A DNA stretch of 37,396 bases from Candidatus Altiarchaeales archaeon (GTDB lineage: Archaea > Altiarchaeota > Altiarchaeia > IMC4 > SCGC-AAA252-I15), in assembly GCA_011380095.1 (NCBI GenBank), contig DSAL01000063.1, positions 1-37,396 of the forward strand, read 5' to 3'. The position numbers were made by a program, and so were the translations under genes. Positions within the stretch are counted from its first letter, which is position 1. Each line of letters opens with the position of its first letter. The notes under the pieces are model-generated. The model was not told the DNA's origin. It did no database searches and worked only from the letters and a program-made list of their open reading frames with translations. Below are positions 3,185 to 32,664 of this stretch, one piece after another.

Positions 3185-3208
3185 AATGGGATTAGACGGT
3201 TAAAGTCT

Positions 3209-4339: not shown

Positions 4340-4341
4340 TG

Positions 4342-5301: not shown

Positions 5302-5386
5302 TGTCGTGTAATAAATCTAAAAGACGGTTAAAAACAGGAGGGTGTGGGGCGTTTAAATAAGAGTTTTCATTTATTGTATTTGAGAG

Positions 5387-5551
5387 ATGGATTTAACTAG
5401 GATTCCCGTATGGGAGTTGGCGTTGATGGCGGCGGCGGGCGTTGCGGTAGTAATCGTATTCATGCTCTGGTGGTTCCTCGGCTACGACCTGGCTGTCGTA
5501 GCCAAAGCCGGAGCCTCAATGCAGGCGGGTCTTGCGTCAATTCTAGTTTAG
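5387..5551 (+). CDS. Small hypothetical membrane protein (54 aa, below the ORF-track cutoff)
   Basis: Hand translation gives MDLTRIPVWELALMAAAGVAVVIVFMLWWFLGYDLAVVAKAGASMQAGLASILV*. It has one clear TM helix. A TTTAAATA TATA-like box at 5352-5359 lies about 30 nt upstream of the ATG. The 3-prime end overlaps the convergent PadR gene by 9 nt. Confidence 0.3.
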   Translation: MDLTRIPVWELALMAAAGVAVVIVFMLWWFLGYDLAVVAKAGASMQAGLASILV

Positions 5552-5872
5552 GCCGGATTGCCTAAATAGTTTTTTTGTGAGGAGTTGAACGTATTTTTCG
5601 CCTTTTTTCAGAAGATTCTCGCCTTCTTCGGTTATCGTATAGTATTTCCTCTTCCTGTTTTCGATGGTCTCCCACTGGGCTTTCACGAATCCGTCGCGCT
5701 CGAGCTTGTATAATACCATGTAGGCTGTAACCTGCCCTATCTTGAAGCCTGACTGGCTTTCAAGCTTTTCCCTGACTTCATAGGCGTAGAGTGGCTTGTC
5801 CTTCATGAGCGAGAGGATATGAATCCAAAGGCATTCGATTGTCGTCTTTCTCTTAAGCCTCTCCAACGGCAT
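5543..5872 (-). CDS. PadR-family winged-helix transcriptional regulator
   Basis: 109 aa. The stretch YAYEVREKLESQSGFKIGQVTAYMVLYKLERDGFVKAQWETIENRKRKYYTITEEGENLL matches the PadR wHTH signature. Confidence 0.8.
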   Translation of the reverse strand: MPLERLKRKTTIECLWIHILSLMKDKPLYAYEVREKLESQSGFKIGQVTAYMVLYKLERDGFVKAQWETIENRKRKYYTITEEGENLLKKGEKYVQLLTKKLFRQSGLN

Positions 5873-5952
5873 TGTTTTACACCCGTAAAATAATTTATTA
5901 ACTATTGAACCTATTGTTTTACAGTTATAAAATAAGAGATGGTGTTTGGATT
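5873..5952. promoter_or_regulatory. Divergent promoter region between the PadR and inositol-phosphate synthase genes
   Basis: AT-rich 80-nt spacer. A TTATAAAATA TATA-like element at 5925-5934 lies 19-28 nt upstream of ATG 5953. TAATTTATTA at 5891-5900 could serve the minus-strand PadR gene. Confidence 0.4.
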
Positions 5953-7038
5953 ATGGGCAGAATCAAGATTGCACTGGTCGGAGTTGGAAACTGCGCCTCA
6001 AGCCTCGTGCAGGGACGCGAATACTACAAGAACATTGACGGAAACGACCCGCTCGTGCCGGGACTAATGCACAACGTGGTCGGCGGATACGCGATAAAAG
6101 ACATCGATTTTGTCGCCGCATTCGACATAGACAAAAACAAGGTGGGAAAAGACTTGGGCGACGCTGTTTTCTCAAAACCAAACTGCACTACAAAATTCAG
6201 TGACGTCCCGGAATGGAAGGTTGAAGTCAAAAAGGGCCCGGTCCTCGACGGAGTCGGCGAAACCACGAAAGACAAGTTCCTGGTGGACCCAAGCCAGACG
6301 CCGGTTGATGTCGCAAGAGAACTCGAAGACTCTGGAGCCGAAATCCTCATGAACTACCTGCCGGTAGGCTCGGAAAAGGCCGCAAGATTCTACGCGGAAG
6401 AATGCCTGAAAGCCGGAGTCGCATTCATCAACGCCATGCCAGTCTTCATAGCATCAACCAAAGAGTGGGACGAGCGTTTCAGGCAGGCGGGAGTCCCGAC
6501 AATCGGCGACGACATCAAAAGCCAGCTTGGCGCAACAATCGTACACCGCGTCCTGACAAAACTTTTCGTCGACAGGGGAGTGAAACTCGACCACACATAC
6601 CAGCTGAATGTCGGCGGAAACACCGACTTTCTGAACATGCTCGAACGAACCAGACTAAAAAGCAAGAAAATCAGCAAGACGCAGTCCGTCCAATCACAGC
6701 TTCCAACAAAACTCGCGCCAGAAGACATACACATCGGTCCGTCAGACTACGTCCCCTGGCTGAACGACAACAAGCTCTGCTTCATCAGGATGGAGGGCAG
6801 GAAATTCGGCGACGTCCCCCTAAACCTCGAGTTAAGGCTTTCGGTTGAAGACAGCCCTAACAGCGCGGGAGTCATGGTTGACGCGATAAGGTGCGCGAAA
6901 CTCGCACTCGACCGAGGAGTATCAGGAACTCTCACAAGCCCGTCAAGCTATTTCATGAAAAGCCCGATGATACAGTACAGTGACGACGTGTGCAGAAATC
7001 TTGTGGAAGAATACATCAAAGGCGAAAGAGAAAGATAG
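5953..7038 (+). CDS. ino1: myo-Inositol-1-phosphate synthase (actinobacterial/Thermotoga-type Ino1)
   Basis: The ORF aligns end to end by eye with M. tuberculosis Ino1. Matching stretches include [91 protein letters not shown] and FGDVPLNLE. The track starts at TTG 5905; ATG 5953 ([13 protein letters not shown]) is preferred. Confidence 0.93.
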
Positions 7039-7088
7039 TGGATTAATGCAGGAGGTAAAAAAACCCCACCACCAAACACTTTTCCAAG

Positions 7089-7096
7089 TTTTTTAA
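7089..7096 (+). promoter_or_regulatory. TATA-like box (TTTTTTAA) inside a 16-mer shared with the C/D sRNA promoter
   Basis: TTCCAAGTTTTTTAAG at 7082-7097 is identical to 36372-36387. It lies about 35-40 nt upstream of ATG 7131, implying a short leader or none. Confidence 0.4.
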
Positions 7097-7130
7097 GGGC
7101 GTAAAAGAAAGTTTGTTTCAGGCAAAAAAA

Positions 7131-7742
7131 ATGTTGAAGTCAAGCTTTGGAAGACAGGTCGAATGGATTAGCGTGAAAATAGGGATAGTTTTCGCAAGAC
7201 TCAGAATTCCACCGAACATTTGGACTATACTCGCGCTCGCCCCCGCCATAATCGGACTCTACGCACTATACCAAAAAATGCTTTTTGAGGCGGTAGTCCT
7301 CTTCTTCATATCAGGCTTCATCGACGCGATAGACGGCGCGGTCGCGAGAGTCACAGGGTCGGAGAGCGCGATTGGAGCGTTCCTAGACGGCGTCGTCGAC
7401 AGGTATGTGGAAATATTTCTCTACATAGGACTCCTAACCTATCTTTCAGGGACTGCCACGCCGATAATCCCGCTTGAGGCCTGGATTATCGTGCTCGTAT
7501 TCGGGGCTCTCATGCCCTCCTTCATAACGGCGTACGCAGACCACAGGGGCGTCATAACAGAGCCTGAAAAGCTTAAGAGGATGGGTGGCCTGATAGAGCG
7601 TGCGGAACGCTTGAACATACTCTATCTCGGAATGATTTTAGGGATATTTGATGTAATTTACCTGGTATATGCTGTGGTCGGAGTCGCAGTACTGGCTAAT
7701 CTGACGGCATTACAGCGGACTGCGTACGTCCTCAGGCACTAA
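7131..7742 (+). CDS. CDP-alcohol phosphatidyltransferase, likely archaetidylinositol-phosphate synthase
   Basis: The motif DAIDGAVARVTGSESAIGAFLDGVVDR matches D-x2-DG-x2-AR-x8-G-x3-D-x3-D. Multi-TM protein. Adjacency to MIPS suggests an inositol-phosphate acceptor (inference). The track starts at TTG 7113; ATG 7131 is preferred. Confidence 0.75.
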   Translation: MLKSSFGRQVEWISVKIGIVFARLRIPPNIWTILALAPAIIGLYALYQKMLFEAVVLFFISGFIDAIDGAVARVTGSESAIGAFLDGVVDRYVEIFLYIGLLTYLSGTATPIIPLEAWIIVLVFGALMPSFITAYADHRGVITEPEKLKRMGGLIERAERLNILYLGMILGIFDVIYLVYAVVGVAVLANLTALQRTAYVLRH

Positions 7743-8180: not shown

Positions 8181-9130
8181 GCGACGAGGACATCGAAGAA
8201 AAGATAGGCCCCACCATGGAAAAGATCGAGTCAAGCGAGAAGGGGATTTTCGAGATAGTCAAGAAAGTCAGAAAACTCCAGTCCGAAGCCAAAATCCTAA
8301 AGGAAAAACGCGACCGCCTCAACAACCAGTGCAAGACCATCGCGGACGAAGCGCGCGGTTTCCGGGAAAAACGGGATGAGCTGAACAATCAGATAACAGA
8401 ATTGAAGAAGGAGCGTGAAGTCCACAACAAGCTCGCCAAAGAGAAGAGCGGCGAGATTGAGGGGAAGAAGAAGGAGCGCGACAGGCTGAACGAGTCGGCG
8501 AGAGGCACCGACAAACGCCTTCAAAAGCTTTACGAAAAGAATGTTAAAAAGATTCTGGAAAAGGACCTTCCGCTCGACGACGAGAAGAAATTGTTTAAAA
8601 GCATTTTCGAGCTGGACGCGAGAATAAACGACGCGAAAAAAGCCGACGAACTCCACACTGAAGTCGTCGGGAAATACAATGACCTGAAGACCATCGACAC
8701 AAAAGTCGACGAGCTGAGCGGGAAGATCAGGGAGATAGCCAACAAGTCCGAAGAGCATCATCTTGAAGCCGTGAAACGATACGAGCAGCTTGACAAGCTG
8801 AGCGGCGAGGCCGACGAGCATCACGAGGCGTTAATCAAAAAGTACGGGGAAATCAACGAATTGCGCAAAAACATTGACGCCATCAAGGAAGACATTTCAA
8901 AGCTTCGGGAGGATATTGCCCCATACACTAGCGAGCTTGAATCCATTGAGAAGAGCAGGCGCGAGCTTGACTTGAAAAAGAAGGCCGACGAGGCGAAGGG
9001 GAAGCTTAGGGAGGGCAAGAGGCTTAGTTTCGACGACTTCAAGTCGCTTTTAGAAGGAGACGAAGACTTCCTAAGCGACGACGAATCGCAGGAAGATGCT
9101 GCAAAAGCGGATTCCCAGCAGTCAGCTTAA
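8177..9130 (+). CDS. Archaeal coiled-coil protein (COG1340-like)
   Basis: About 317 aa of K/E/R/D-rich heptad sequence, e.g. KEKRDRLNNQCKTIADEARGFREKRDELNNQITELKKEREVHNKL. It resembles the uncharacterised archaeal coiled-coil family COG1340. It has an acidic C-terminal tail. Confidence 0.6.
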   Translation: MSDEDIEEKIGPTMEKIESSEKGIFEIVKKVRKLQSEAKILKEKRDRLNNQCKTIADEARGFREKRDELNNQITELKKEREVHNKLAKEKSGEIEGKKKERDRLNESARGTDKRLQKLYEKNVKKILEKDLPLDDEKKLFKSIFELDARINDAKKADELHTEVVGKYNDLKTIDTKVDELSGKIREIANKSEEHHLEAVKRYEQLDKLSGEADEHHEALIKKYGEINELRKNIDAIKEDISKLREDIAPYTSELESIEKSRRELDLKKKADEAKGKLREGKRLSFDDFKSLLEGDEDFLSDDESQEDAAKADSQQSA

Positions 9131-10255
9131 GATAAAGTCCACCTCTTCTTTTTCAAGACCATAGTCTTCGAAGTCTTTATCAGTAATCTTCTTTTTCTCG
9201 TATAGCGTCTTGAAGAGGGGAATGTATTGTCTTGCGATAACAGTGCTTGACGCGTGAAGGAGCGGGGCGAGTTTTTCCCCAATCGACTTTTTCATGTTTT
9301 TCGCGGTTTTCGCCCGAGACATTGAAATCCATGCTGACGGAAACTTGTATTGAACGTAGTTTACTTTGTCGGGCCTTGAAAGGTTTACTCCACCTGTCAT
9401 CAGCGGGTTTGCGTATCTGAGGAAACCCCAGTACTGGCGGTTTTGTATTCTGCCAAGGAAGATGTCTGCGCGGGAGAGGTGTTCAAACGCCCGCGTCCTC
9501 GATTCTTTTGAAGAGTATAGGAGTGGCGTATTTTCCTCAATCCAGTACAAGACGTCTTTGGGCTGTTCGCCTATATTCCACGTGGATTCCACAACCTCCT
9601 TCAAGTCTCTTCCGCCGAACACCGTGCTCATGCAGGCGTAAATGTCTTTTTTCACGTCGCGGGGGTAAAGTTGTTCTAAATCCTTTTCCGTGATTTTTTT
9701 GGAGCCTGCCGATAATGCTTCAAGGTCGTGGAGTGCGGCGCGGTAGTCGCCCCCGGCATTCTTGCCGAGCTCCTTCAAAACGTCCTTTTCAGCCTCGATT
9801 CCCTCGGCGTCGCACACGGTTTTTAGAAATGCGCCAATTGACGCCGCCATCGGTTTTCTAAGCTGGAGTTCCCCGCACTTTTTTTTCAGAGTTGACAGTT
9901 TTCGCGAAGAATAGTCGCGGGTGGTCATGATGAGCGGGTTCTTGCACACGTTTATGAAGTCTGCGAGCTTTGTCGTATTCTGCTCGTCAACGTCTTCAAC
10001 TAGGAAGAGTTTCCTGCCCCCGAAAAGGCTTTTTGTGGCTGCGGAATTTTTCAGAACGTCAATGTTGTCTGAATCTACCTTGACGATATCCCATCCTTTT
10101 TCAACGGCAGTCAGCTCTGCTAGGAGTGTCTTTCCGACTCCGGTCTTCCCGTGTATTATAAGTGGACTGCCGTCCCACGCCGTCATGAATTCAACCGCCT
10201 TCGGAGTGCCGTGGAATTCACTGAGGCTTTTTGGCTTGTGTTTCACGCTCCACAT
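9122..10255 (-). CDS. rfcL: Replication factor C large subunit
   Basis: MWSVKHKPKSLSEF matches W.EKYRPK.L.E. Walker A is GKTGVGKT and Walker B is LFLVEDVD. NPLIMTT and GDYRAALHDLEAL correspond to NPIIM and GDLRAAINDLQ of Pyrococcus RFC-L. ATG 10255 is preferred over the track start at 10297. Confidence 0.85.
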   Translation of the reverse strand: MWSVKHKPKSLSEFHGTPKAVEFMTAWDGSPLIIHGKTGVGKTLLAELTAVEKGWDIVKVDSDNIDVLKNSAATKSLFGGRKLFLVEDVDEQNTTKLADFINVCKNPLIMTTRDYSSRKLSTLKKKCGELQLRKPMAASIGAFLKTVCDAEGIEAEKDVLKELGKNAGGDYRAALHDLEALSAGSKKITEKDLEQLYPRDVKKDIYACMSTVFGGRDLKEVVESTWNIGEQPKDVLYWIEENTPLLYSSKESRTRAFEHLSRADIFLGRIQNRQYWGFLRYANPLMTGGVNLSRPDKVNYVQYKFPSAWISMSRAKTAKNMKKSIGEKLAPLLHASSTVIARQYIPLFKTLYEKKKITDKDFEDYGLEKEEVDFILS

Positions 10256-10354
10256 GACTGGTAAAGTATTCGGAGAATTTTGATATAAACAGTGCAAGAG
10301 CGGGTGAAAACTGGATTTATATGTTGTTCAAACCATTTAGAATAAGGTTGTTTT

Positions 10355-11548
10355 ATGAAACCGTATAAAGTCATAAGAGACCCAATCCACGGCAACATAG
10401 GGCTCAGCGAGCTTGAAGTCGAACTTATAGACACAAGGCAGATGCAGAGGCTTCGGAACGTGAAGCAGAACGGCCTTTGCTACCTTGTTTATCCGGCGAT
10501 GAACTCCACCAGGTTTGAGCACAGCCTCGGGGTAATGCATCTTGGAGGCGTTTTGGCGGAAAATCTCGAGCTCGGTGAAGAAGACGCAAAAACCGTGCGG
10601 TGCGCGGGCCTCCTGCACGACATAGGGCACGGCCCGTTCTCGCACACCACCGAATTCGCTTGGAAGAAGACTGGGGCGGACCACGAATATTATTCTGAAA
10701 AAATCGTCCGCTCAGACGAGATATCAAAAATACTCAGAGAACATGGCGTAAAGCCAAAGAGGGTTTGCCAGCTCATAAAGGGTGTTGGAGCGCTTGGAGG
10801 GGTAATATCATCTCCAATAGACGTGGACAAGATGGATTATCTAATCCGCGACGCGTATTACGCTGGCGTAGCCTACGGAATCACAGACGTTGAGCGGGTG
10901 CTTCAAAGCATCAGGATTTTCGGCGACGAGATTTCGGTCGACGAGGACGGCCTTGAAGCGGTTGAAAGCCTGCTTGTCAACCGGAACCTGATGTATCAGA
11001 CAGTATACCGGCATCACGCGAAAAGAATCGCGGAAGCCATGTTTAGGAAAGCCCTCCAGAAGATGGTTGAGGAAGGCTTTAACCCCGAAAGCCTTGTTGA
11101 ATTCGACGATGTTGAAATGCTTTCGATAATGAGGGGGCATGGAGGCTTCGTCTCAGACATGATAAGACGCCTTGAAGCGAGGCGCCTGTACAAGAACGTT
11201 TTCAGGGAAAATCTGGTTGGCCTTGACAAAGACTTCAAAAAAGAGGTTTCAAGAAATCCGGACGAACTTGAAGAGCGGATAGAGGTGGAGCTTGGCCTGG
11301 ACGAAGGCTCTGTCATCGTCGACTATCCTGAAGTGCAGATGAGCGAGTTCAAGGTTAAGATACTGTCAAACGGAAAACTAAAGCCGATAGACGACATGTC
11401 GACTATCGCTAAAAACCTCGAACAGTCCGACATGGAAAAACTATGCCTAAACATTTACTGCGAGACCGGCATGCTTGAAAAAACAGGTGGATTCAACCCG
11501 AAAAGGTATGTCAAATACTCGCAGACTCATATCGACACTTTTATATAA
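10355..11548 (+). CDS. HD-domain phosphohydrolase (COG1078, SAMHD1/dGTPase-like)
   Basis: Motifs are VIRDPIHGNI, RLRNVKQ, TRFEHSLGVMHL, LLHDIGHGPFSH and DVDKMDYLIRDAYYAGV. Confidence 0.85.
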   Translation: MKPYKVIRDPIHGNIGLSELEVELIDTRQMQRLRNVKQNGLCYLVYPAMNSTRFEHSLGVMHLGGVLAENLELGEEDAKTVRCAGLLHDIGHGPFSHTTEFAWKKTGADHEYYSEKIVRSDEISKILREHGVKPKRVCQLIKGVGALGGVISSPIDVDKMDYLIRDAYYAGVAYGITDVERVLQSIRIFGDEISVDEDGLEAVESLLVNRNLMYQTVYRHHAKRIAEAMFRKALQKMVEEGFNPESLVEFDDVEMLSIMRGHGGFVSDMIRRLEARRLYKNVFRENLVGLDKDFKKEVSRNPDELEERIEVELGLDEGSVIVDYPEVQMSEFKVKILSNGKLKPIDDMSTIAKNLEQSDMEKLCLNIYCETGMLEKTGGFNPKRYVKYSQTHIDTFI

Positions 11549-11585
11549 GGGTTTTCAATAATTTCCTTGAGGTGTTATTTTAACA

Positions 11586-11702
11586 ATGGGCGAGAAAGAA
11601 TCTGCCAGCATGGATGCAGAGCAAAAAAAGAAGGACAATATGATGATGATTGGAATGGCCATCGCAATGGCCCTGATAATCTACTTCCTCTGGTTCAGGT
11701 AG
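11586..11702 (+). CDS. Small hypothetical membrane protein (38 aa)
   Basis: Hand translation gives MGEKESASMDAEQKKKDNMMMIGMAIAMALIIYFLWFR*. It has a charged N-terminus and one TM helix. GAGGTG lies about 12 nt upstream of the ATG. It is a better candidate than the overlapping 72-aa track ORF at 11567-11785. Confidence 0.3.
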   Translation: MGEKESASMDAEQKKKDNMMMIGMAIAMALIIYFLWFR

Positions 11703-11710
11703 AAAAAAAC

Positions 11711-12274
11711 CTATTTTATTTTTTCCCAAACTATTTCTCTTATTTTTTCCCTTGTTTCCCCGAAACTCCTGCCGGAGTCCACTGAAACCATGTCGCCGAA
11801 TTTATAATAGTTTTCCCGTACTTTCGCGAGAAACTCCCTCTTCTCGAAAATCTCGTCTCCCGAATAGCGTGAAACCGCCGCATCAAGGGGGATGTCCAAA
11901 AGGATTGTCAAATCCGGCTTTGGCGCGAACTCGTTTATTTTCACAAGCCAACTCCAAGAGACGCCCTGCGCCGCCTGATAGGCGATTGTACTATAGTAGT
12001 ATCTTTCGCAAACCACAATCTTTTCGGAGTCGAGCGCCGGGAGTATAAGGCTTTTGACGTGCTGGCTTCGGTCTGCCGTGAAAAGAAGCGCGAGCGTTTC
12101 GGGGTCTGCGGTTGCTTTCCCTCCGAGAACCTCACGAATCCACATTCCGGTTTTGGAGTTGGTGGGCTCCGCGGTCAAGACAACGTCAAAGCCTTTTTCC
12201 CCAAGCCACTTTCCCAAATCTTTCGCGTGAGTCGACTTCCCGCAACCGTCAATCCCTTCCAAAACGATAAACAT
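11711..12274 (-). CDS. tmk: Thymidylate kinase
   Basis: MFIVLEGIDGCGKSTHAKDL carries the P-loop. DRY-like ERYYYSTIAYQ is present. 187 aa. Confidence 0.9.
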   Translation of the reverse strand: MFIVLEGIDGCGKSTHAKDLGKWLGEKGFDVVLTAEPTNSKTGMWIREVLGGKATADPETLALLFTADRSQHVKSLILPALDSEKIVVCERYYYSTIAYQAAQGVSWSWLVKINEFAPKPDLTILLDIPLDAAVSRYSGDEIFEKREFLAKVRENYYKFGDMVSVDSGRSFGETREKIREIVWEKIK

Positions 12275-17455: not shown

Positions 17456-17566
17456 TTCATGATGAGCCGCCCGTGAATGTTAAAGGTATTGACGGTATTT
17501 ATTTTCCACCGGATTCGGTGTTAAGGCTTTTAGCCTAGTAAACGTAATTTTCTATCCGGCCGGAAG

Positions 17567-19324
17567 TTGTTGTTTTGGTTGGGGAGCGTGGAGTATCTTG
17601 TGGAAGTCCTAAAACACGGCGGCAGCCTGTCCGAATTTGACAAGGGCAAGATTGTTAAAACCTGCATGACCGCGGGCTGTTCACTGGATTTGGCTTCAAG
17701 GATTGCGGGGGAGATAGAGTCGATATGCTATCCGGGCATGCCGACCATCGAGATACGCGAGAAGGTTTACGGCATGCTCTGCGACATCGACAAAGAACTT
17801 GCCGAAAAATACTTGTACCGCACCAACCTTCGGGTTAGGACTTCAGACTACCAGCTGAAGAAATTCAACGGGCAAAAGATTACCGACTCTCTTGTGACGG
17901 AGACTCTTGTTGACGAGGAGTTCGCCTCCCAAATCGCCAAGGCCGTCGAAAAGGAGCTGGCGAAACTCAAGCTCGATTATGTGACGGCACCCCTCATCCG
18001 CGAGATTGTGAACGTCAAGCTTTTGGAGGAGGGCATGGAGAGCGTCCGCGCCAAATACACAAGACTTGGAATGCCGGTATATGACGTGAAAGAGCTTTTC
18101 AGGGGCGTCGGGCTTGAGGGAGGATTCTGCCCCCAACGGATTAGGGATGCGATGGCTGAGCAGATAATAACCGAATACACCCTCCTTAACATCCTGCCTC
18201 CGGCTCTCGCCGACAGCCATCTTAAGGGGGATTTGAACATACACTACATCCGCGATTTTCCGCTGAAGGCGGAGTCTTTCAGCCATCCCTTGAAAATATT
18301 TCTGGAAAAAGGGTTGGACTGGAATGGGACTGAAACGTTCGTCTTGGAAAAGCCTGCGAAAACAGGAGGCGATTTCGTGAGGCATTTGAGAAAGATTTCA
18401 TACTCGGCAGGGCTTGAATTGAGCGGACTGCAGGTTTTCCCGGGCATTTTGGAGTTAGCTAAAAAGTTCGCGAGAAAAGACGCGGAAAAATTCGTGAAAG
18501 AAATGGTTTCCGAACTGTCCTACGCAAGCAGGATAACGGAGAGCGGGAGGGTGATGCTGTCGCTTGAAGACGTGGGCGATTTTTCAAAAAGCCTTGTCAA
18601 ACCGCTTTTGGAAAACAGTGGTGACGCCAACGGCCTTGTATTTTGGATTGACGCGAAAGATGCGCAAACCCTGAGGACTGCGGTAGGGAGAAAACCGTGG
18701 GGCGCGCAAATAATTTTGGGGAAGACTCCGGCATATTTTGAGCCGGAGATGGGTGTCGCCCAGACCGTCTGCATAAACCTCGCCCACGCCGAAAGCCTTG
18801 AGGGGGAGGTGGAGTCTGTGCAAAGGCTTTTGAAGGACGCTAAGGAAATCCTGATTTTCAAGAAGAAGATGCTGCAGGAAAACCACAGGAAGGGTTTGTG
18901 GAGCTATCTCGGCCAAATGCAGGAGGGGACGGCGGTTTACGACCCGCTTAAACAGGAGTATGTGATATCTTTCTGCGGGCTTGAAAGCGTTTCGGAAAAA
19001 GAGTTGGGGGAAACACAGGTTCTTGAATCAATGCGAAAATACGTCAACAGCCTGAAGAAGAAGAGCGGCATGCGGTTCATGCTCAAAAAGTGCGGTTGCC
19101 CGGAATGCTGCGCCAGGTTTGCGCGGATTGACGGAAAACGCTCCTGCAAAAATAAAGTTAATCTGCTGGAAGAGTTTGGCGAGGTTGTCGAACGCTGGAA
19201 CATGATTTCACGATACGCCGACAGTCAAAGCCCGATTGAGGTTGACGGCGGGAAAGCCTCCAAAAAGATTATTGAAGCGTGCACGGGTTTATTGGAGCGT
19301 GGAATACCAATACGATTTGTTTAG
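17567..19324 (+). CDS. Double ATP-cone protein with class III RNR (NrdD)-like body, apparently lacking radical motifs
   Basis: There are two ATP-cone-like segments: VEVLKHGGSLSEFDKGKIVKT... and LRVRTSDYQLKKFNGQKITDSL.... The body shows NrdD-like stretches: SHLKGDLNIHYIRDF, EKPAKTGG and VAQTVCINLAHAE. The C-terminus has a CGCPECC..C cluster but I see no RVCGY-type glycyl-radical motif. The start is probably GTG 17588 (VEYLVEVLKHGG) rather than TTG 17567. Confidence 0.55.
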   Translation: MLFWLGSVEYLVEVLKHGGSLSEFDKGKIVKTCMTAGCSLDLASRIAGEIESICYPGMPTIEIREKVYGMLCDIDKELAEKYLYRTNLRVRTSDYQLKKFNGQKITDSLVTETLVDEEFASQIAKAVEKELAKLKLDYVTAPLIREIVNVKLLEEGMESVRAKYTRLGMPVYDVKELFRGVGLEGGFCPQRIRDAMAEQIITEYTLLNILPPALADSHLKGDLNIHYIRDFPLKAESFSHPLKIFLEKGLDWNGTETFVLEKPAKTGGDFVRHLRKISYSAGLELSGLQVFPGILELAKKFARKDAEKFVKEMVSELSYASRITESGRVMLSLEDVGDFSKSLVKPLLENSGDANGLVFWIDAKDAQTLRTAVGRKPWGAQIILGKTPAYFEPEMGVAQTVCINLAHAESLEGEVESVQRLLKDAKEILIFKKKMLQENHRKGLWSYLGQMQEGTAVYDPLKQEYVISFCGLESVSEKELGETQVLESMRKYVNSLKKKSGMRFMLKKCGCPECCARFARIDGKRSCKNKVNLLEEFGEVVERWNMISRYADSQSPIEVDGGKASKKIIEACTGLLERGIPIRFV

Positions 19325-20581
19325 ATGGAAGGAAGTGACGTACGCTGCAAGATTACTAAGGCGATGAAGGAGGCCCGTCCGATGAGCAGGCAACTGTGCC
19401 TCTCATGCAAGGGGGGCAGGCTCTTGTGCGGGATGTCGAGTTGCCCTCTTTTGAAAAAGCTTGAAGTCCAAGCACCCCTAACTGAAAGGATTGGGCGCGA
19501 TGTTGACGGCCCGAGCCCCTCAATCTTTGTCGGATGGGGAGGGTATCCCCAAGTTAGCGTGGGGCAGCTGACGTCTTTCAGCCCGGACACCGCCTCCGCA
19601 TCAGATAATCCCGGAGGATGGTACGGCCTCGGCTTCGAAGACATCATCGCCTACAGGTCCAGCCTTATTCGGAGCAAGAAAAAACAGGGTGTTTTCAAAA
19701 GGAACGGTTTCATAGACGACTTGCGGGAGATTGCCCTTTCAGTAAATCCTGTTGAGGTTGAAGCCCGCTACAAGAACCCGCCGAAATTCAGTCTCGAGTT
19801 TAATCCCGTGTCTCAGCCGATGGGTCCGAGCGGGGTTTTGGAGAAGATGGATTTGACCGGCAATCCCAAGATTCCGAGGAGGGTTGATTCGGTTGTGAAC
19901 GACGATTTGAAGTCTCAGACGCAGGTCGGAATGCTTTATGAAAGCGATTTTGACGTCTATTATTTGAGCGGGGTTTTGTCGTCCGGAATCTTGGGCTTGG
20001 AAGACAAGCAGAAGATGGTGCCCACCCGCTGGAGCATCACCGCAATCGACGGCATGCTCGCTAAAAAGATGATGGAGGAAATCCGCGGTTGCCCTCAAAT
20101 CAACGAGTTTTTGGTTTTTGAAAACACTTATCTCGAGAACCATTTCGAGATAATTTTGATGCCCGGCGCCTGGGAGTTCGAATTGTTTGAAGCCTGGAGT
20201 CCAAACACGCTTTGGACGATGAATGAAAGTGAGCCGGTGATACAGGTGGAATACGAGGGGCATGATGGGAGGACCAAGTACGCGTTCAACGAGGGCGGGG
20301 GCTACTACGCCGGAAGGCTTGCGGTGGCCGAATACCTTTCGAAAATCCGAAGGCAGGCTCGTGCAATAGTGTTTAGGGAAATCTATGAGGGTTATGTCGT
20401 GCCGGTCGGAGTCTGGGAGGTGCGGGAGAACGTCCGCCACGCATTCACTAAAAAACCAAAACGATTCCAGAGCATGAGGGAGGCTTTATCCGACATCGAA
20501 ACGAGACTGAGGATTCCGGTGAGAAATTATACCGACAAGAGCCGGATACTCGCGCAAAAAAGGATTACAGACTACTTCTGA
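19325..20581 (+). CDS. nreA: NreA-family DNA repair protein (COG1602) with C-terminal PIP box
   Basis: The N-terminal Cys motif is LCLSCKGGRLLCGMSSCPLL. 418 aa. The protein ends in QKRITDYF*, matching the PIP consensus Q-x-x-[ILM]-x-x-[FY]-[FY] (20555-20578). Its ATG follows immediately after the upstream TAG. Confidence 0.75.
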   Translation: MEGSDVRCKITKAMKEARPMSRQLCLSCKGGRLLCGMSSCPLLKKLEVQAPLTERIGRDVDGPSPSIFVGWGGYPQVSVGQLTSFSPDTASASDNPGGWYGLGFEDIIAYRSSLIRSKKKQGVFKRNGFIDDLREIALSVNPVEVEARYKNPPKFSLEFNPVSQPMGPSGVLEKMDLTGNPKIPRRVDSVVNDDLKSQTQVGMLYESDFDVYYLSGVLSSGILGLEDKQKMVPTRWSITAIDGMLAKKMMEEIRGCPQINEFLVFENTYLENHFEIILMPGAWEFELFEAWSPNTLWTMNESEPVIQVEYEGHDGRTKYAFNEGGGYYAGRLAVAEYLSKIRRQARAIVFREIYEGYVVPVGVWEVRENVRHAFTKKPKRFQSMREALSDIETRLRIPVRNYTDKSRILAQKRITDYF

Positions 20582-20600: not shown

Positions 20601-22094
20601 CTAGCCCCTCATCTTGTTTTTTCGCCTGACGAGCGGGCGCAGGAGAAGGAGTATGGGGAAGACTTCAAGCCTCCCAATCCACATCAAAAGCGCCAAAACG
20701 ATTTTCCCGGAAGACACCATCTCAAACCAGCGGGCGCCTGTCACAAACACTATTCCGACGTTGCCCATCGCGGAAAAGCTCAACTCGACGCCCTCCATCC
20801 CGGTGAATCCTAAAGACATGAGGAGTATCGCGCCAACAAGCGAGATTATCAAGTATATCATCGAGAATCCGAGTACGTAGAGCAGGTCTGCGAAATCAAT
20901 GTTTTTCTCGCCGAGCTTGAATGCCACAACCGCGTTCTTCGGAAGCATCATCCGCTTGAAGACGTAGTGTATGGACTTTACTATTACGGCAAGCCTCAAA
21001 AGCTTTATTCCGCCGGCGGTCGAGCCGTAGAATCCTCCGGAATACATGAGCATTATCAGGACTGTTTGGGCGAGCTCCGGCCACTGGCCGGTGTCACTTG
21101 TTCCAAAGCCAGTGCACGTTATCGCGGAAACAGTCTGGAAGGCGCTTTTGCGAAGCGATATGGCGGGGGATGCAGAATTGAAGTCTGGTGCGGAGTTGAA
21201 GACGCTCGCCCAGACGACGAGGGTTGATGTGAGGATTAGGAAGAACATGAATTTCGACTCAACATTTGATAGGAGAGACTTCACGTCGCCTGTGAAAAGC
21301 CGATAATGCAGGAGGAAGCTTACGGCGCCCGCAAGCATGAGAAGGATTGTGATGACTTCGATTACGACGGAATCGAAGTGTCCGATGCTTTGAGAGTGGG
21401 TTGAAAATCCGCCTGTCGCTATGGCCGCCCAACTGTGGTTTAAAGCGTCGAAGAATGACATTCCCGCGATGAAGTATAGGATGGTTCCGGCGAACGCGTA
21501 GAGCATGTAGATTTTCCATGTTTCCACAACAGTACCCCGTATCCCCGGCTTGATGCGCTGGACTCCCACCTCGCTCCCATAGTATTCCGCCGCAGCCTTT
21601 CCCGTGTTCAGAAATACTACAAGGCCGAGGGCGATGATTCCGACGCCTCCCACAAGGTGCGTGAGGCTTCGGTAGAGAAGTATGTCTTTATCGATGTTTT
21701 CAGGATACTCTATCATCGTCATCCCCGTAGTCGCCCAACCGCTCATCGACTCGAAGAAGCTGTCTACCGGGCCGAGCGTTCCGCGAACGAGAAACGGCAG
21801 CATGCCGACGATGGCGATTATCATCCAGGCGACGACCACGGTCGTTAGGGCGTGTGAAGTACGCGTCTCCGTCTTCGTCTTGCCCGCCTTTTTGGATAGG
21901 GTGTAGAGCATGTAGAACACGAGGGAGGGAAGCAGGAACGCGAGCATCTCGTGAAACAATTCCGTCTTGGACTGTGCGCTGGTGTAGAATACTGTGGCCG
22001 CAACCGGCACGAGCATGACGATTGACAGGACCTGAAGAATTCCGGACAAGTCCCTTAAGGTGACTTTAAGGTCGTCCAGCGTGAACGAATACAT
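20601..22094 (-). CDS. trkH: TrkH/KtrB-family potassium transporter membrane subunit
   Basis: 497-aa polytopic protein. It has repeated pore-loop-like segments (MSGWATTGMT, ATGGFSTH, ITCTGFGTS, MGNVG) and sits immediately downstream of trkA. Confidence 0.85.
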   Translation of the reverse strand: MYSFTLDDLKVTLRDLSGILQVLSIVMLVPVAATVFYTSAQSKTELFHEMLAFLLPSLVFYMLYTLSKKAGKTKTETRTSHALTTVVVAWMIIAIVGMLPFLVRGTLGPVDSFFESMSGWATTGMTMIEYPENIDKDILLYRSLTHLVGGVGIIALGLVVFLNTGKAAAEYYGSEVGVQRIKPGIRGTVVETWKIYMLYAFAGTILYFIAGMSFFDALNHSWAAIATGGFSTHSQSIGHFDSVVIEVITILLMLAGAVSFLLHYRLFTGDVKSLLSNVESKFMFFLILTSTLVVWASVFNSAPDFNSASPAISLRKSAFQTVSAITCTGFGTSDTGQWPELAQTVLIMLMYSGGFYGSTAGGIKLLRLAVIVKSIHYVFKRMMLPKNAVVAFKLGEKNIDFADLLYVLGFSMIYLIISLVGAILLMSLGFTGMEGVELSFSAMGNVGIVFVTGARWFEMVSSGKIVLALLMWIGRLEVFPILLLLRPLVRRKNKMRG

Positions 22095-22584: not shown

Positions 22585-23382
22585 ATGCCGGTAGTAGAAT
22601 ATCAGCTGAAAGACCTTTTGGAGTTGATGGGGGCGGGCTATAGCGAGCGGGAGCTTTCCGTGGCGATACCAATGATGGGGACCGACCTTGCCGGCATAAA
22701 AGACGGCGTGATTACCGTTGAAGTCTTCCCGAACCGCCCTGACATCCTCAATATCGAGGGTTTCGCCCGGGCGCTCAAAGGTTTTATGGGCGTTGAAGGG
22801 GGGCTTGCGAGATACGGCGTGTCGCCGTCCGGCATGGAACTTCTCGTCGAGAAGAAGAATGTTGAGGGCATCCGCCCGTTCATTTCGGCCGCAATCGTCA
22901 AAGACCTTGAGTTGAGCGAGGACGGCGTAGTCTCTTTGATGAACGTTCAGGAGAAACTCCACATCACCCACGGCCGGAACAGGCGGAAGGTGGCCATAGG
23001 CGTCCACGACCTCGACAAGATTAAGGGCCCGTTCACATACACCGCGAAAAATCCTAAAGACGTCTCGTTCATCCCGCTCGACATGAATGAGAAGATGAAC
23101 TTGCAGCAGATACTTTCAAGACACCCGAAGGGAAGAGACTACGCGTGGACTGTTGAGGGATTCAAAAAGTATCCGGTAATCTTTGACTCAACCGGCGAAG
23201 TCCTCTCGTTCCCGCCCATCATCAACGGAGAATACTCCCGTGTCGGCGACAATACAAGAAACATCTTCATCGAATGCACGGGCACAAGCCAAAACGCATG
23301 CGACATCGCAGTCAACATAATTGTTACAGGACTCGCAGACCGGGGCGGAAAAATACAGAGCATAGAAGTCAGCGAGAAATAG
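22585..23382 (+). CDS. pheT: Phenylalanyl-tRNA synthetase beta subunit, N-terminal B1 + B3/B4 portion only (truncated or split)
   Basis: It is collinear with the archaeal PheT N-half. Matching stretches are MPVVEY..DLLELMG, FPNRPDILNIEGFARALKGFMG, EKLHITHGRNRRKVAIGVHDLDKI, PPIINGEYS and IVTGLADRGGKIQSIEV. It stops at 265 aa, whereas archaeal PheT is about 550 aa by my recollection. A good SD (GGAGG) lies upstream. Confidence 0.75.
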   Translation: MPVVEYQLKDLLELMGAGYSERELSVAIPMMGTDLAGIKDGVITVEVFPNRPDILNIEGFARALKGFMGVEGGLARYGVSPSGMELLVEKKNVEGIRPFISAAIVKDLELSEDGVVSLMNVQEKLHITHGRNRRKVAIGVHDLDKIKGPFTYTAKNPKDVSFIPLDMNEKMNLQQILSRHPKGRDYAWTVEGFKKYPVIFDSTGEVLSFPPIINGEYSRVGDNTRNIFIECTGTSQNACDIAVNIIVTGLADRGGKIQSIEVSEK

Positions 23383-31932: not shown

Positions 31933-32664
31933 CTACATCGATTCTATTCTTGGCGCAAGATAATAGACCAGTTTTGAATCCCCGATTGAATACGAGATTT
32001 GCAGCGGCGCGTCAGTCCTAAGTTTTACCTGAACTATGGACGGAGGCTCTGCCTCCTTCAAAATGTTGTTCAAGTGGTCGAGGCTGAATACCGCGCGGGA
32101 AGCGCTCTTCTTCTCAAGCGAGAGGAGTTTTTCCTCTGGAAGCCTGATTTCAACGCTTCCGGTGTCGCCGTCGCAGGCTATGTTGAATCCGTCGTCAATG
32201 CTTAATGCGACGTGGTTGCTGACAAGCTCCGCGTCCTTCAAAGCCTCCTTGATTATTGCGGGCGGAATCTTCGCGCTTGACGTGAACTCAATCTGAGGCT
32301 CTTTGGGTGGGGACGAGTGAGCGTCGATTACAGCTATCTTGAAGCTTCGGGTAGTGTCGCCCTTGAATGTCATTCCAAGCCTCTTGTCCAGGCTCAAATG
32401 AATCTTGTCTTCCGCCTTGACGCGCTTTGTAATCTTGCTCATTTCGGCAAAATCGATTCCAATGTCGATCGGCCTGTCAAGTTCAAAGCTTTCAAAAGAT
32501 GATGCGGGTAGGTTAAAGTCGAGCATTGCAATCTGGCTCGGATCCATGGCCCTCAAATGCATGCCGTCGGAGTCAATTATAAAGGTGCCCTCGTCGAGTA
32601 TGGAAGCGATAGCGTCGATGCTGCTCTTCCAGTTCCTGGTGTCACTAATCACGGCTTTGAACAT
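31933..32664 (-). CDS. pcn: DNA polymerase sliding clamp (PCNA)
   Basis: 243 aa. Matching stretches are MFKAVISDTRNWKSSIDAIASILDEGTFIIDSDGMHLRAMDPSQIAMLDFNL and the terminal LVYYLAPRIE. Confidence 0.92.
   Translation of the reverse strand: MFKAVISDTRNWKSSIDAIASILDEGTFIIDSDGMHLRAMDPSQIAMLDFNLPASSFESFELDRPIDIGIDFAEMSKITKRVKAEDKIHLSLDKRLGMTFKGDTTRSFKIAVIDAHSSPPKEPQIEFTSSAKIPPAIIKEALKDAELVSNHVALSIDDGFNIACDGDTGSVEIRLPEEKLLSLEKKSASRAVFSLDHLNNILKEAEPPSIVQVKLRTDAPLQISYSIGDSKLVYYLAPRIESM

What the first reader, a model, noticed from the sequence alone, without database searches (positions are those of the whole stretch)
17567..20581. Apparently radical-less NrdD-like double ATP-cone protein abutting the PCNA-binding repair gene nreA
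The 585-aa ORF begins with two consecutive ATP-cone-like segments. It then aligns by eye with the N-terminal half of class III ribonucleotide reductase. SHLKGDLNIHYIRDF aligns with E. coli NrdD AHERGDIHYHDLDY. EKPAKTGG aligns with EPPKSIST. VAQTVCINLAHAE aligns with LGVISLNLPRIALE. Where NrdD carries the thiyl-radical cysteine (MGCRSFLG), my alignment gives WGAQIILG. The C-terminus has a CGCPECC...C cluster but no RVCGY-type glycyl-radical loop. Its TAG (19322-19324) is followed directly by the ATG of nreA (19325), and the NreA product ends in a canonical PIP box, QKRITDYF. My inference is a catalytically dead RNR relic kept as an ATP/dATP-sensing module and co-expressed with a PCNA-dependent repair factor. 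That would link nucleotide pools to DNA repair, a coupling I do not know to be described.
Basis: partly seen in the sequence, partly recalled or inferred. Interest (0 to 1): 0.7.

Follow-up and report, generated by a model that had tools for sequence, protein, structure and literature searches.

The report
Dead NrdD relic keeping ATP-cones
This archaeal gene descends from an anaerobic ribonucleotide reductase that has lost every catalytic element but kept its two nucleotide-sensing ATP-cone domains intact, and it sits in a conserved operon with the DNA-repair gene nreA, which points to an undescribed group of non-catalytic RNR-derived proteins in archaea.

Summary
ORF 17567-19324 encodes two ATP-cones followed by a class III RNR (NrdD) core that lacks every catalytic hallmark. 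The NxN flap is gone. HxHD reads NIHY. There is no beta-A Cys. The thiyl-radical finger loop is deleted. The Zn ribbon and glycyl-radical domain are absent. Its TAG abuts the ATG of nreA, whose product has Nre_N and Nre_C domains, a Cys4 motif and the PIP box QKRITDYF.

The contig is from an Altiarchaeota-like archaeon. The locus tctA(-)|nrdD-x|nreA|trkH(-) is conserved across that phylum. It holds a genuine NrdD in some genomes and dead NrdD derivatives in others. The dead types B and C evolve at the same rate as nreA (dN/dS about 0.1-0.2), and nreA lies directly downstream in 14 of 16 of them. The nearest relative of the window has nothing at this position.

The window copy is the most eroded member. 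It keeps 41 of 41 family-conserved cone positions but only 37 of 80 in the core, while its coding signal stays normal.

My reading is a non-catalytic ATP-cone protein co-expressed with NreA. Its target (NreA or a real RNR) is unproven. I found no published description.

The parts
17456..17566 (.). Intergenic region shared with the divergent tctA. It presumably holds the promoter for nrdD-like/nreA; AT-rich TTTATTTT lies at about 17499-17506.
   Evidence: Sequence read. The promoter assignment is inference only.
17567..19324 (+). NrdD-derived, non-catalytic double ATP-cone protein (585 aa from TTG 17567). Alternative starts are GTG 17588 (578 aa, the gene callers' choice) and GTG 17600 (where homologues start, with GGAG 6 nt upstream).
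17600..17824 (+). ATP-cone 1 (residues about 12-86). It carries the signature K..(x11)KI...T.E.....KY.
   Evidence: Pfam reports 2 stretches. AF2 gives E13-15, E21-23 and 4 helices at pLDDT above 90. All family-conserved columns are kept.
17825..18091 (+). ATP-cone 2 plus linker (residues 87-175), of the VRTS...APLIREIVNVKLLE...YTRLGMPVYDV type. This is the best-conserved part of the whole family.
   Evidence: Pfam best stretch is 89-165. Identity to real and dead homologues is 65-69%, the same as between subfamilies. Invariant columns are listed.
18092..18505 (+). N-terminal part of the NrdD core (residues 176-313). It comprises the long dimer/specificity-site helix, a degenerate HxHD (NIHY, residues 224-227, nt 18236-18247), a lost beta-A Cys (KAESFSHP), and the GPAK hairpin (EKPAKTGG). 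The NxN flap is lost (GLEGGF).
   Evidence: Pfam NRDD covers residues 189-313. Motif definitions come from PMC11226230. 22 of 42 conserved columns are kept.
18506..19321 (+). Eroded remainder of the barrel (residues 314-585). It has an 8-aa deletion of FNxxLAPY and about 22 aa of the GGQ..FSSI strand are missing. The finger loop is deleted between residues about 386 and 396 (nt 18722-18754). The NLP strand is kept (N404). TPAES is replaced by CGCPECC (nt 19091-19111). YYTNS is deleted. There is no Zn ribbon and no glycyl-radical domain.
   Evidence: AF2 gives low pLDDT for 316-390 and 527-534 but 80-97 for 391-525. 15 of 38 conserved columns are kept. Coding potential is normal except in the last 90 codons.
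19322..19327 (+). Stop/start junction TAG|ATG, indicating translational coupling of nrdD-like and nreA.
   Evidence: Homologous junctions span -38 to +79 nt.
19325..20581 (+). nreA (418 aa), with an N-terminal Cys4 (C25, C28, C35, C40; nt 19397-19444) and a C-terminal PIP box QKRITDYF (nt 20555-20578).
   Evidence: Pfam Nre_N and Nre_C. Regex check. The PIP definition Qxxhxxaa and the function of NreA come from PMC4929162.
16253..17455 (-). tctA-family membrane protein, the upstream synteny anchor of the locus.
   Evidence: It lies upstream of real and dead nrdD in about 28 Altiarchaeota loci.
20601..22094 (-). trkH, the convergent downstream synteny anchor. It is followed by trkA, a pheT-like gene, mamF-like, DUF2085 and CDC48.

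Best explanation
The gene is the positional orthologue of the Altiarchaeota class III ribonucleotide reductase gene nrdD. It has lost catalysis completely and survives as a non-catalytic ATP-cone protein.

Shown:
- It lacks the substrate-binding, radical-transfer and radical-storage elements.
- Its two ATP-cones and the cone-core linker are under the same constraint as in working enzymes, while the barrel is eroding.
- It is translationally abutted to nreA in an operon arrangement that is conserved for dead NrdD homologues across Altiarchaeota.

Inferred:
- The cones still bind ATP/dATP. As in NrdD and NrdR, nucleotide binding would then change the oligomeric or conformational state of a dimer held together by the retained N-terminal NrdD helices.
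- That state is read out by a partner protein. I weakly favour the co-translated PCNA-binding repair factor NreA (about 0.3), over a genuine RNR encoded elsewhere in the genome (about 0.25).

The window copy is the most reduced member of this lineage and is dispensable, because the nearest relative lacks it.
For: Catalytic death:
- Pfam NRDD covers only profile positions 9-130 of 562 and scores 59 bits. Dead types B and C score 257 and 339 bits, and a real neighbour-clade NrdD scores 522 bits.
- The NCBIfam NrdD equivalog scores 48.7 against a cut-off of 326.
- NxN, HxHD, the beta-A Cys, the finger loop, TPAES, the Zn ribbon and the GRD motif are all absent.

Fold:
- The AF2 model has pLDDT 78.5. 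Foldseek top hits are all NrdD (E 7e-15 to 1e-9, TM about 0.5).

Selective retention of the cones:
- 41 of 41 conserved columns are kept in the cones, 22 of 42 in the N-terminal core and 15 of 38 in the rest.
- Region identities tell the same story.

A translated gene rather than a pseudogene:
- The ORF is intact over 585 codons.
- Codon log-likelihood is 0.25-0.54 across the ORF, against a window mean of 0.36 (SD 0.11).
- Identical sequence appears in three assemblies.

Family context:
- Dead types B and C evolve like the adjacent nreA. Amino-acid identity is 0.54-0.73 against 0.57-0.75, and dN/dS is 0.06-0.23.
- nreA lies directly downstream in 14 of 16 of them.
- The same tctA|nrdD-x|nreA|trkH locus holds a real NrdD in L086 and other loci.

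TAG|ATG junction.
Against: - No experiment or structure shows nucleotide binding. In both cones the canonical KRDG is altered (KHGG and RTSD), although this is also true of the real enzymes of this clade.
- The nearest relative (L084) has tctA-nreA-trkH with no trace of the gene.
- No other sequence closer than about 37% identity exists among 5.8 billion clusters or 1.8 billion representatives. Selection on this particular lineage therefore cannot be measured, and the core has evolved far faster than in types B and C.
- The nreA adjacency is ancestral synteny shared with catalytic nrdD.
- Dead NrdD-like genes in Hydrothermarchaeota-like genomes lie in RNR clusters, not next to nreA.
Confidence: 0.55

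Rival explanations
1. It is a regulatory or structural partner of a genuine RNR, and the nreA adjacency is only inherited gene order. The dead subunit would heterodimerise with a catalytic NrdD paralogue through the retained dimer/specificity-site helices, or otherwise tune RNR activity or expression according to ATP/dATP. The yeast Rnr2-Rnr4 pair, in which an inactive subunit pairs with an active one, is an analogy.
For: - Type D dead homologues are the last gene of RNR clusters. L091 reads AsnC|NrdD-NrdG-x-NrdJ-CobA-dead, and L087 reads AsnC|NrdJ-NrdJ-dead.
- L065 has a real NrdD 3.4 kb upstream of a dead one.
- Altiarchaeota carry NrdD paralogues in tandem (L032, L034), so one copy could lose catalysis.
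- PcNrdD works with only one active monomer per dimer (PMC11226230).
- The long core helix and the GPAK hairpin are retained in the window protein.
Against: - No RNR or NrdG gene lies in the 37-kb window, and the rest of the genome is unavailable.
- The window protein has lost about half of the conserved core positions, including parts of the interface region.
- In Altiarchaeota the dead copies are tightly operonic with nreA and not with an RNR.
Confidence: 0.25
2. It is a decaying relic with no function of its own. The ORF is a late-stage remnant of nrdD on its way to deletion. It stays open only because of its recent history, or because ribosomes must traverse it to reach the abutting nreA start codon.
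For: - The core is extremely diverged, at 9-33% identity against 40-65% between subfamilies.
- There are several internal deletions.
- The lineage is a singleton.
- The gene is completely absent at the same locus in the nearest relative.
- The weakest coding signal is in the last 90 codons.
- One assembly shows a frameshift (P0122 plus P0124).
- nreA has no obvious Shine-Dalgarno sequence of its own in front of its ATG.
Against: - 41 of 41 conserved cone positions are kept against 37 of 80 elsewhere. At the core's retention rate, the chance of this is about 1e-14.
- There is no stop codon in 585 codons despite saturating divergence.
- Codon usage is normal.
- AF2 models residues 391-525 confidently as NrdD-like strands and helices.
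- The sister lineages B and C are clearly under purifying selection.
- The frameshift occurs in a G-run in only one of four assemblies and is likely an assembly error.
Confidence: 0.12
3. It is an ordinary but very divergent NrdD whose catalytic residues were missed by misalignment.
For: - Public pipelines label many homologues 'anaerobic ribonucleoside-triphosphate reductase'.
- Pfam NRDD passes its gathering threshold.
Against: - The following hold independently of any alignment: no Cys in residues 189-401, no R..G[YFW], no HxHD and no NxN.
- The protein ends before the Zn ribbon and GRD.
- The NCBIfam NrdD equivalog scores 48.7 against 326.
- Only about 11 residues lie between the strand at 383-384 and the NLP strand at 396-404, too few for a finger loop.
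Confidence: 0.01

Closest known systems
Class III (anaerobic) ribonucleotide reductase catalytic subunit NrdD, double-Cys (MCCR/NrdD2-like) type of Altiarchaeota and Archaeoglobus
   Same: Common ancestry and the same chromosomal locus. The N-terminal architecture is identical: ATP-cone 1, ATP-cone 2, then a highly conserved linker. The long core helix, the GPAK hairpin and the NLP strand are shared. Foldseek top hits are NrdD structures 8p2c, 9d3x, 4con and 1h7b.
   Different: The window protein lacks the NxN flap, HxHD, the beta-A Cys, the finger-loop Cys pair, the TPAE loop, the Zn ribbon and the glycyl-radical motif. It is about 150-200 aa shorter. No NrdG or redoxin gene is adjacent.
Dead NrdD-like proteins of Altiarchaeota, informally types B (728-745 aa) and C (687-697 aa). 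They are unnamed in databases; NCBI calls one of them an 'ATP cone domain-containing protein'.
   Same: These are the best sequence matches (36-37% identity, E 1e-89). They occupy the same locus and have the same tight operon with nreA. The beta-A Cys is lost in all, and the finger loop is deleted in type B as in the window protein.
   Different: Types B and C keep HxHD and most of the barrel. Type B also keeps the Zn ribbon and a modified Gly loop (SRDTGH[IL]QN). Both evolve as slowly as nreA. The window protein has lost these parts, and its core evolves much faster.
NrdR (Zn-ribbon plus ATP-cone transcriptional repressor of RNR genes)
   Same: It is a non-catalytic protein whose function rests on ATP/dATP sensing by an ATP-cone with nucleotide-dependent oligomerisation (PMC9110341 abstract). 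It is the likely functional analogy.
   Different: NrdR has one cone and a DNA-binding Zn ribbon, has no RNR barrel, and is mostly bacterial. The window protein has no recognisable DNA-binding domain. Only the Bathyarchaeia type E relatives carry an ArsR-type HTH.
Catalytically inactive RNR subunit homologues kept for other roles: betaherpesvirus R1 homologues M45/UL45 and yeast Rnr4 (from my own knowledge, not tested here)
   Same: They set the precedent that RNR subunits can lose their catalytic residues and persist as structural or regulatory proteins.
   Different: They belong to class I RNR in eukaryotes or viruses, and ATP-cone retention is not the point in those cases. There is no evolutionary relation to this case beyond the RNR superfamily.

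Membership tests
NrdD (class III RNR catalytic subunit; PF13597 / TIGR02487) | Homologous alpha/beta-barrel core detectable by profile and by fold | tested here: met
   Pfam NRDD scores 59 bits (gathering threshold 26.2) but covers only residues 189-313, matching profile positions 9-130 of 562. Foldseek hits NrdD structures at E 7e-15 with TM about 0.5.
NrdD (class III RNR catalytic subunit; PF13597 / TIGR02487) | Passes the curated equivalog threshold used to name NrdD | tested here: not met
   TIGR02487 scores 48.7 bits against a cut-off of 326.35. All other NrdD equivalogs score far below their cut-offs.
NrdD (class III RNR catalytic subunit; PF13597 / TIGR02487) | C-terminal glycyl-radical motif (R-[VI]-x-G-Y) preceded by a Cys4 Zn ribbon | tested here: not met
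   The protein ends before this domain, and there is no R..G[YFW] anywhere.
NrdD (class III RNR catalytic subunit; PF13597 / TIGR02487) | Thiyl-radical Cys on the finger loop (MGCR/MCCR motif) | tested here: not met
   The loop is deleted. There is no Cys in residues 189-401, and only about 11 residues link the flanking strands. The motif definition comes from 10.1101/2022.04.23.489257.
NrdD (class III RNR catalytic subunit; PF13597 / TIGR02487) | Beta-A cysteine (RPFCFSHD in the real enzymes of this clade) | tested here: not met
   The window reads KAESFSHP.
NrdD (class III RNR catalytic subunit; PF13597 / TIGR02487) | HxHD motif that binds the substrate triphosphate | tested here: not met
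   The window reads NIHY at residues 224-227. The motif is defined in PMC11226230.
NrdD (class III RNR catalytic subunit; PF13597 / TIGR02487) | NxN flap between the ATP-cone linker and the core | tested here: not met
   Real enzymes read ENANLQ and the window reads GLEGGF. There is no N.N in the whole protein. The motif is defined in PMC11226230.
NrdD (class III RNR catalytic subunit; PF13597 / TIGR02487) | Cognate radical-SAM activase NrdG in the genome | not testable with these tools
   None is present in the 37-kb window. The rest of the genome is not available, and the species is not in genome contigs.
ATP-cone domain (PF03477) | Profile match above threshold, and the fold of a beta-hairpin plus four helices | tested here: met
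   The score is 50.8 bits (gathering threshold 25.8) in two stretches. AF2 shows two such units at pLDDT above 90. 41 of 41 family-conserved columns are kept.
ATP-cone domain (PF03477) | Binds ATP/dATP | not testable with these tools
   Only sequence signatures are available: K..KI, T.E and KY are present in both cones, while the R of KRDG is replaced by H or T, as in the real enzymes of the clade (residue roles are from my own knowledge of E. coli NrdA).
NreA (archaeal PCNA-dependent repair factor), for the downstream gene | Nre_N plus Nre_C domains and a C-terminal PIP motif Qxxhxxaa | tested here: met
   E values are 3.6e-89 and 4.6e-36. QKRITDYF occupies the last 8 residues. The definition comes from PMC4929162. 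The haloarchaeal equivalog NF041387 scores 302 against a cut-off of 700, as expected for a non-haloarchaeon.
NrdR-like DNA-binding nucleotide sensor | DNA-binding module (Zn ribbon or HTH) fused to the ATP-cone | tested here: not met
   Pfam and NCBIfam find no HTH or Zn-ribbon domain in the window protein. An HTH is present only in the distant type E relatives.

The most novel reading that the evidence does not exclude
Archaea harbour an undescribed family or families of NrdD-derived pseudoenzymes that have become ATP/dATP sensors. In Altiarchaeota they would form a two-gene module with NreA that gates PCNA-dependent DNA repair by the state of the dNTP pool. In Hydrothermarchaeota-like genomes they would regulate the RNR cluster they belong to. 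In Bathyarchaeia, fused to an ArsR-type HTH, they would act as an archaeal functional analogue of NrdR. The window gene would be a minimal version in which essentially only the cones and a dimerisation scaffold remain.
Probability: 0.2. Interest if true: 0.8.

Novelty: new variant of a known kind. Interest (0 to 1): 0.6.

Why it matters
RNR regulation by ATP-cones is a textbook case of allostery. Archaea mostly lack NrdR, and how they couple dNTP supply to replication and repair is poorly known. A conserved set of catalytically dead NrdD proteins that keep their ATP-cones under purifying selection would give concrete candidates for such regulators. These proteins are operonic with nreA in Altiarchaeota, embedded in RNR clusters elsewhere, and HTH-fused in Bathyarchaeia. 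The nreA operon would also give NreA, whose biochemical function is still unknown, a first genomic partner other than SplB-like radical-SAM genes. There is a practical point too: many of these proteins are annotated as functional 'anaerobic ribonucleoside-triphosphate reductase', and that inflates metabolic reconstructions of uncultured archaea.

Tried and rejected
- A single-sequence phmmer search against PDB gave nothing. A profile search was needed.
- dN/dS could not be computed on the window gene. All cluster members and loci L001-L003 are 99.9-100% identical, so they come from the same population.
- No closer relative was found by the word-indexed search or the exhaustive search.
- The NJ tree places the window protein on a very long branch next to other dead groups. 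I regard this as long-branch attraction and did not use it. The affinity to type B rests on best hits and the shared finger-loop deletion.
- I could not look for a genuine RNR or NrdG in the same genome.
- I considered CGCPECC as a remnant Zn ribbon or metal site. It aligns with the TPAES loop and is unique to this sequence, so it is probably incidental.
- I considered an assembly artefact or a frameshifted pseudogene. Three assemblies agree, and one has a frameshift in a G-run.
- Literature searches used NrdD/ATP-cone/archaea/inactive, RNR pseudoenzyme, NreA/PCNA, Nre/SplB and Altiarchaeota/RNR. They found no description of dead NrdD-like proteins or of an nrdD-nreA link.
- tRNA and Rfam scans of the window found nothing.
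- The sigma-70 promoter scanner was not used because it does not apply to archaea.


Full report
**1. What is there.**
ORF 17567..19324 (+) is the longest reading of a gene that public gene callers start at GTG 17588. Homologues suggest it starts at GTG 17600. Its TAG is immediately followed by the ATG of a 418-aa gene at 19325..20581.

Pfam finds two ATP-cone stretches (E 2.5e-13). It finds the NrdD family only for residues 189-313, which match profile positions 9-130 of 562. The NCBIfam NrdD equivalog scores 48.7 bits against a cut-off of 326.

The downstream protein is a full NreA. It has Nre_N and Nre_C domains, an N-terminal Cys4, and QKRITDYF as its last eight residues. That sequence fits the PIP consensus Qxxhxxaa (PMC4929162).

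The same DNA was assembled by at least three pipelines at 99.9-100% identity. One assembly has a frameshift in a G-run.

**2. It is catalytically dead.**
I aligned 94 homologues (A2) and read the motif columns.

Genuine NrdDs of the neighbouring clade carry these elements:
- the NxN flap (ENANLQ)
- HxHD (HIHD)
- a beta-A Cys (RPFCFSHD)
- the double-Cys finger loop (FACYQCCSFLMP)
- TPAES
- a Cys4 Zn ribbon
- the glycyl-radical motif WSRITGYYQN

The roles of NxN, HxHD and the Gly-Tyr pair are taken from the P. copri NrdD structures (PMC11226230). The finger-loop classification is from 10.1101/2022.04.23.489257.

The window protein differs at every one of these:
- GLEGGF replaces the NxN flap.
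- NIHY replaces HxHD.
- KAESFSHP replaces the beta-A Cys segment.
- The finger loop is missing entirely.
- CGCPECC stands in place of TPAES.
- The protein ends before the Zn ribbon.

Independently of any alignment, residues 189-401 contain no Cys, and the protein contains no R..G[YFW], H.HD or N.N.

The AF2 model (pLDDT 78.5) has two confident ATP-cone folds and a partial NrdD barrel. Only about 11 residues sit where the finger loop should be. All top Foldseek hits are NrdD structures, with E 7e-15 to 1e-9 and TM about 0.5.

WGAQIILG aligns with the strand before the finger loop, not with the loop itself. The conclusion was right.

**3. Where it comes from.**
NreA's best relatives, at about 60% identity, are from Altiarchaeota. 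The gene order tctA(-) | nrdD-like | nreA | trkH(-) | trkA(-) | pheT-like | mamF-like | DUF2085 | CDC48 is shared with an Altiarchaeales MAG (L085).

A scan of species-representative genomes gave 80 loci, which I classified:
- **Type A:** real enzymes, with the CC finger loop and the GY motif.
- **Type B:** 728-745 aa. The finger loop is deleted, the beta-A Cys is lost, and the Zn ribbon is kept with SRDTGH[IL]QN.
- **Type C:** 687-697 aa. The finger loop has no Cys pair, and there is no Zn ribbon or GRD.
- **Type D:** 643-673 aa, from Hydrothermarchaeota-like genomes. The loop is deleted and there is no GRD.
- **Type E:** from Bathyarchaeia. It has an ArsR-type HTH, one cone and a dead core.

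A divergent tctA lies upstream of the gene in about 28 Altiarchaeota loci, whatever the type. One locus with a real NrdD reads tctA | NrdD | thioredoxin-like | two genes | NreA ... trkH (L086). The dead genes are therefore positional orthologues of a catalytic nrdD, and the linkage with nreA predates the loss of catalysis.

nreA follows directly, with a gap of -38 to +79 nt, in 14 of 16 type B and C loci. It follows a real NrdD in only four loci, at distances of 249 to 1706 nt.

**4. Are the dead proteins functional?**
Types B and C evolve at the same pace as the adjacent nreA. Pairwise amino-acid identity is 0.54-0.73 against 0.57-0.75, and dN/dS is 0.06-0.23. In the one unsaturated pair the values are 0.17 for the dead gene and 0.25 for nreA. 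These are maintained proteins, not pseudogenes.

The window protein is different. Its NreA is about 60% identical to theirs, but its NrdD-like protein is only about 36% identical.

By region, the cones are as conserved as they are between subfamilies. Cone 1 is 0.38-0.45 identical, and cone 2 plus the linker is 0.65-0.69. The core is far more diverged, at 0.31, 0.16, 0.33 and 0.09 across its regions, against 0.2-0.65 between subfamilies.

Of the columns at least 85% conserved across all homologues, the window keeps 41 of 41 in residues 1-175. It keeps 22 of 42 in residues 176-313 and 15 of 38 beyond that.

Codon-usage log-likelihood is normal along the ORF, at 0.25-0.54 against a mean of 0.36 (SD 0.11) for other genes. 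It dips only in the last 90 codons, to 0.17.

So the ATP-cone module is under strong purifying selection in this lineage, while the barrel is relaxed.

Two facts weigh on the other side:
- The closest relative I could find has 66% identical NreA and the same CxxCxxCC-AIRS-tctA ... nreA-trkH synteny. It has no nrdD-like gene and no remnant of one.
- No sequence between 37% and 100% identity exists in either large protein collection.

**5. How it most likely works.**
Shown:
- The protein is a non-catalytic NrdD derivative.
- Its cones are conserved.
- It abuts nreA translationally.
- The operon is conserved among its dead relatives.

Inferred:
- The cones bind ATP/dATP. Both carry the K...KI / T.E / KY signature. 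The Arg of KRDG is replaced, but this is also so in the real enzymes of the clade.
- Binding shifts the oligomeric or conformational state, as in PcNrdD and NrdR.
- A partner protein reads out that state.

I weakly favour NreA as the partner because of the tight, conserved operon. A genuine RNR is nearly as likely, because type D dead genes close RNR clusters. These read AsnC|NrdD-NrdG-x-NrdJ-CobA-dead and AsnC|NrdJ-NrdJ-dead. Altiarchaeota also carry tandem NrdD paralogues.

A pure relic kept open only for translational coupling is hard to reconcile with the 41-of-41 retention, but it cannot be excluded.

**6. Comparison and novelty.**
The closest known family is NrdD. Membership as an enzyme fails on every catalytic criterion, and only the fold and ancestry remain. 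The functional analogy is NrdR, a non-catalytic ATP-cone sensor.

Inactive RNR subunits have precedents, such as yeast Rnr4 and betaherpesvirus M45/UL45. I cite these from my own knowledge.

I found no paper describing dead NrdD-like proteins or an nrdD-nreA link. The NreA review mentions only SplB-like radical-SAM neighbours.

I rate this a new variant of a known kind. It is moderately interesting for the window gene itself, and more so for the family-level pattern it exposed.

Noticed in passing
L091:1268-10022 and L087:3302-9932 (Hydrothermarchaeota-like metagenome contigs): Dead NrdD-like genes of 643-673 aa, with no finger loop and no GRD but HxHD kept, are the last gene of co-oriented RNR superclusters. 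L091 reads AsnC(-)|NrdD(MCCR)-NrdG-x-NrdJ-CobA-dead. L087 reads AsnC(-)|NrdJ-NrdJ-dead. Each is followed by a small conserved ORF of 111-121 aa.
   Followed up: partly
L088:8001-10220, L089, L090 (proteins P0098-P0118): Bathyarchaeia-type proteins fuse an ArsR-type HTH/DUF7347 to one ATP-cone and a dead NrdD core. The finger loop has no Cys pair, the Zn ribbon is kept, and there is no Gly motif. They are stand-alone genes and are candidates for an archaeal functional analogue of NrdR.
   Followed up: partly
L032:3617-8430 and L034:2180-7023: Two genuine NrdD paralogues (finger loops LSAYQCCAYLMH and FACYQCCSFLMP) lie in tandem downstream of tctA in some Altiarchaeales. This gives the redundancy that could have allowed one copy to lose catalysis.
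   Followed up: partly
L084:3031-3381: In the nearest relative (NreA 66% identical) the tctA-nreA spacer is only about 350 bp. It carries a 73-aa minus-strand ORF call and no remnant of the nrdD-like gene.
   Followed up: yes
window 9122-12274 and 31933-32664: Other replication and DNA-precursor genes lie on the same contig. They are the RFC large subunit (9122-10297, -), an HD/HD_assoc_2 protein with weak dGTP-triphosphohydrolase similarity (10355-11548, +), dTMP kinase (11711-12274, -), and PCNA (31933-32664, -). PCNA is the expected binding partner of NreA.
   Followed up: partly
window 19091-19111 (residues 509-515): A dense Cys cluster, CGCPECC, plus C527, replaces the conserved TPAES substrate-phosphate loop. 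It is unique to this sequence, and a possible adventitious metal site was not tested.
   Followed up: no
window 22585-23382: A 265-aa ORF matches only the N-terminal half (positions 1-264 of 551) of archaeal PheRS beta, above the NCBIfam cut-off. The same half-size gene is conserved in synteny in L001, L003 and L085.
   Followed up: no
protein cluster of the window gene (P0122 + P0124, ENA contig of 35366 bp): One public assembly splits the gene into products of 418 and 168 aa through a frameshift at SLEGE (it reads SLEGGGGV). This is probably a homopolymer assembly error rather than a real pseudogene allele.
   Followed up: partly
window 1116-7742: A cluster of three GT4 glycosyltransferases, a family-4 glycosyl transferase (GT family 4, PF00953), myo-inositol-1-phosphate synthase and a CDP-alcohol phosphatidyltransferase. 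This is probably inositol-phospholipid and glycan synthesis, unrelated to the finding.
   Followed up: no
one search hit list: Many catalytically dead homologues (types B, C and D) are annotated by JGI or NCBI as 'anaerobic ribonucleoside-triphosphate reductase' or 'ribonucleoside-triphosphate reductase (formate)'. This is likely systematic misannotation.
   Followed up: no
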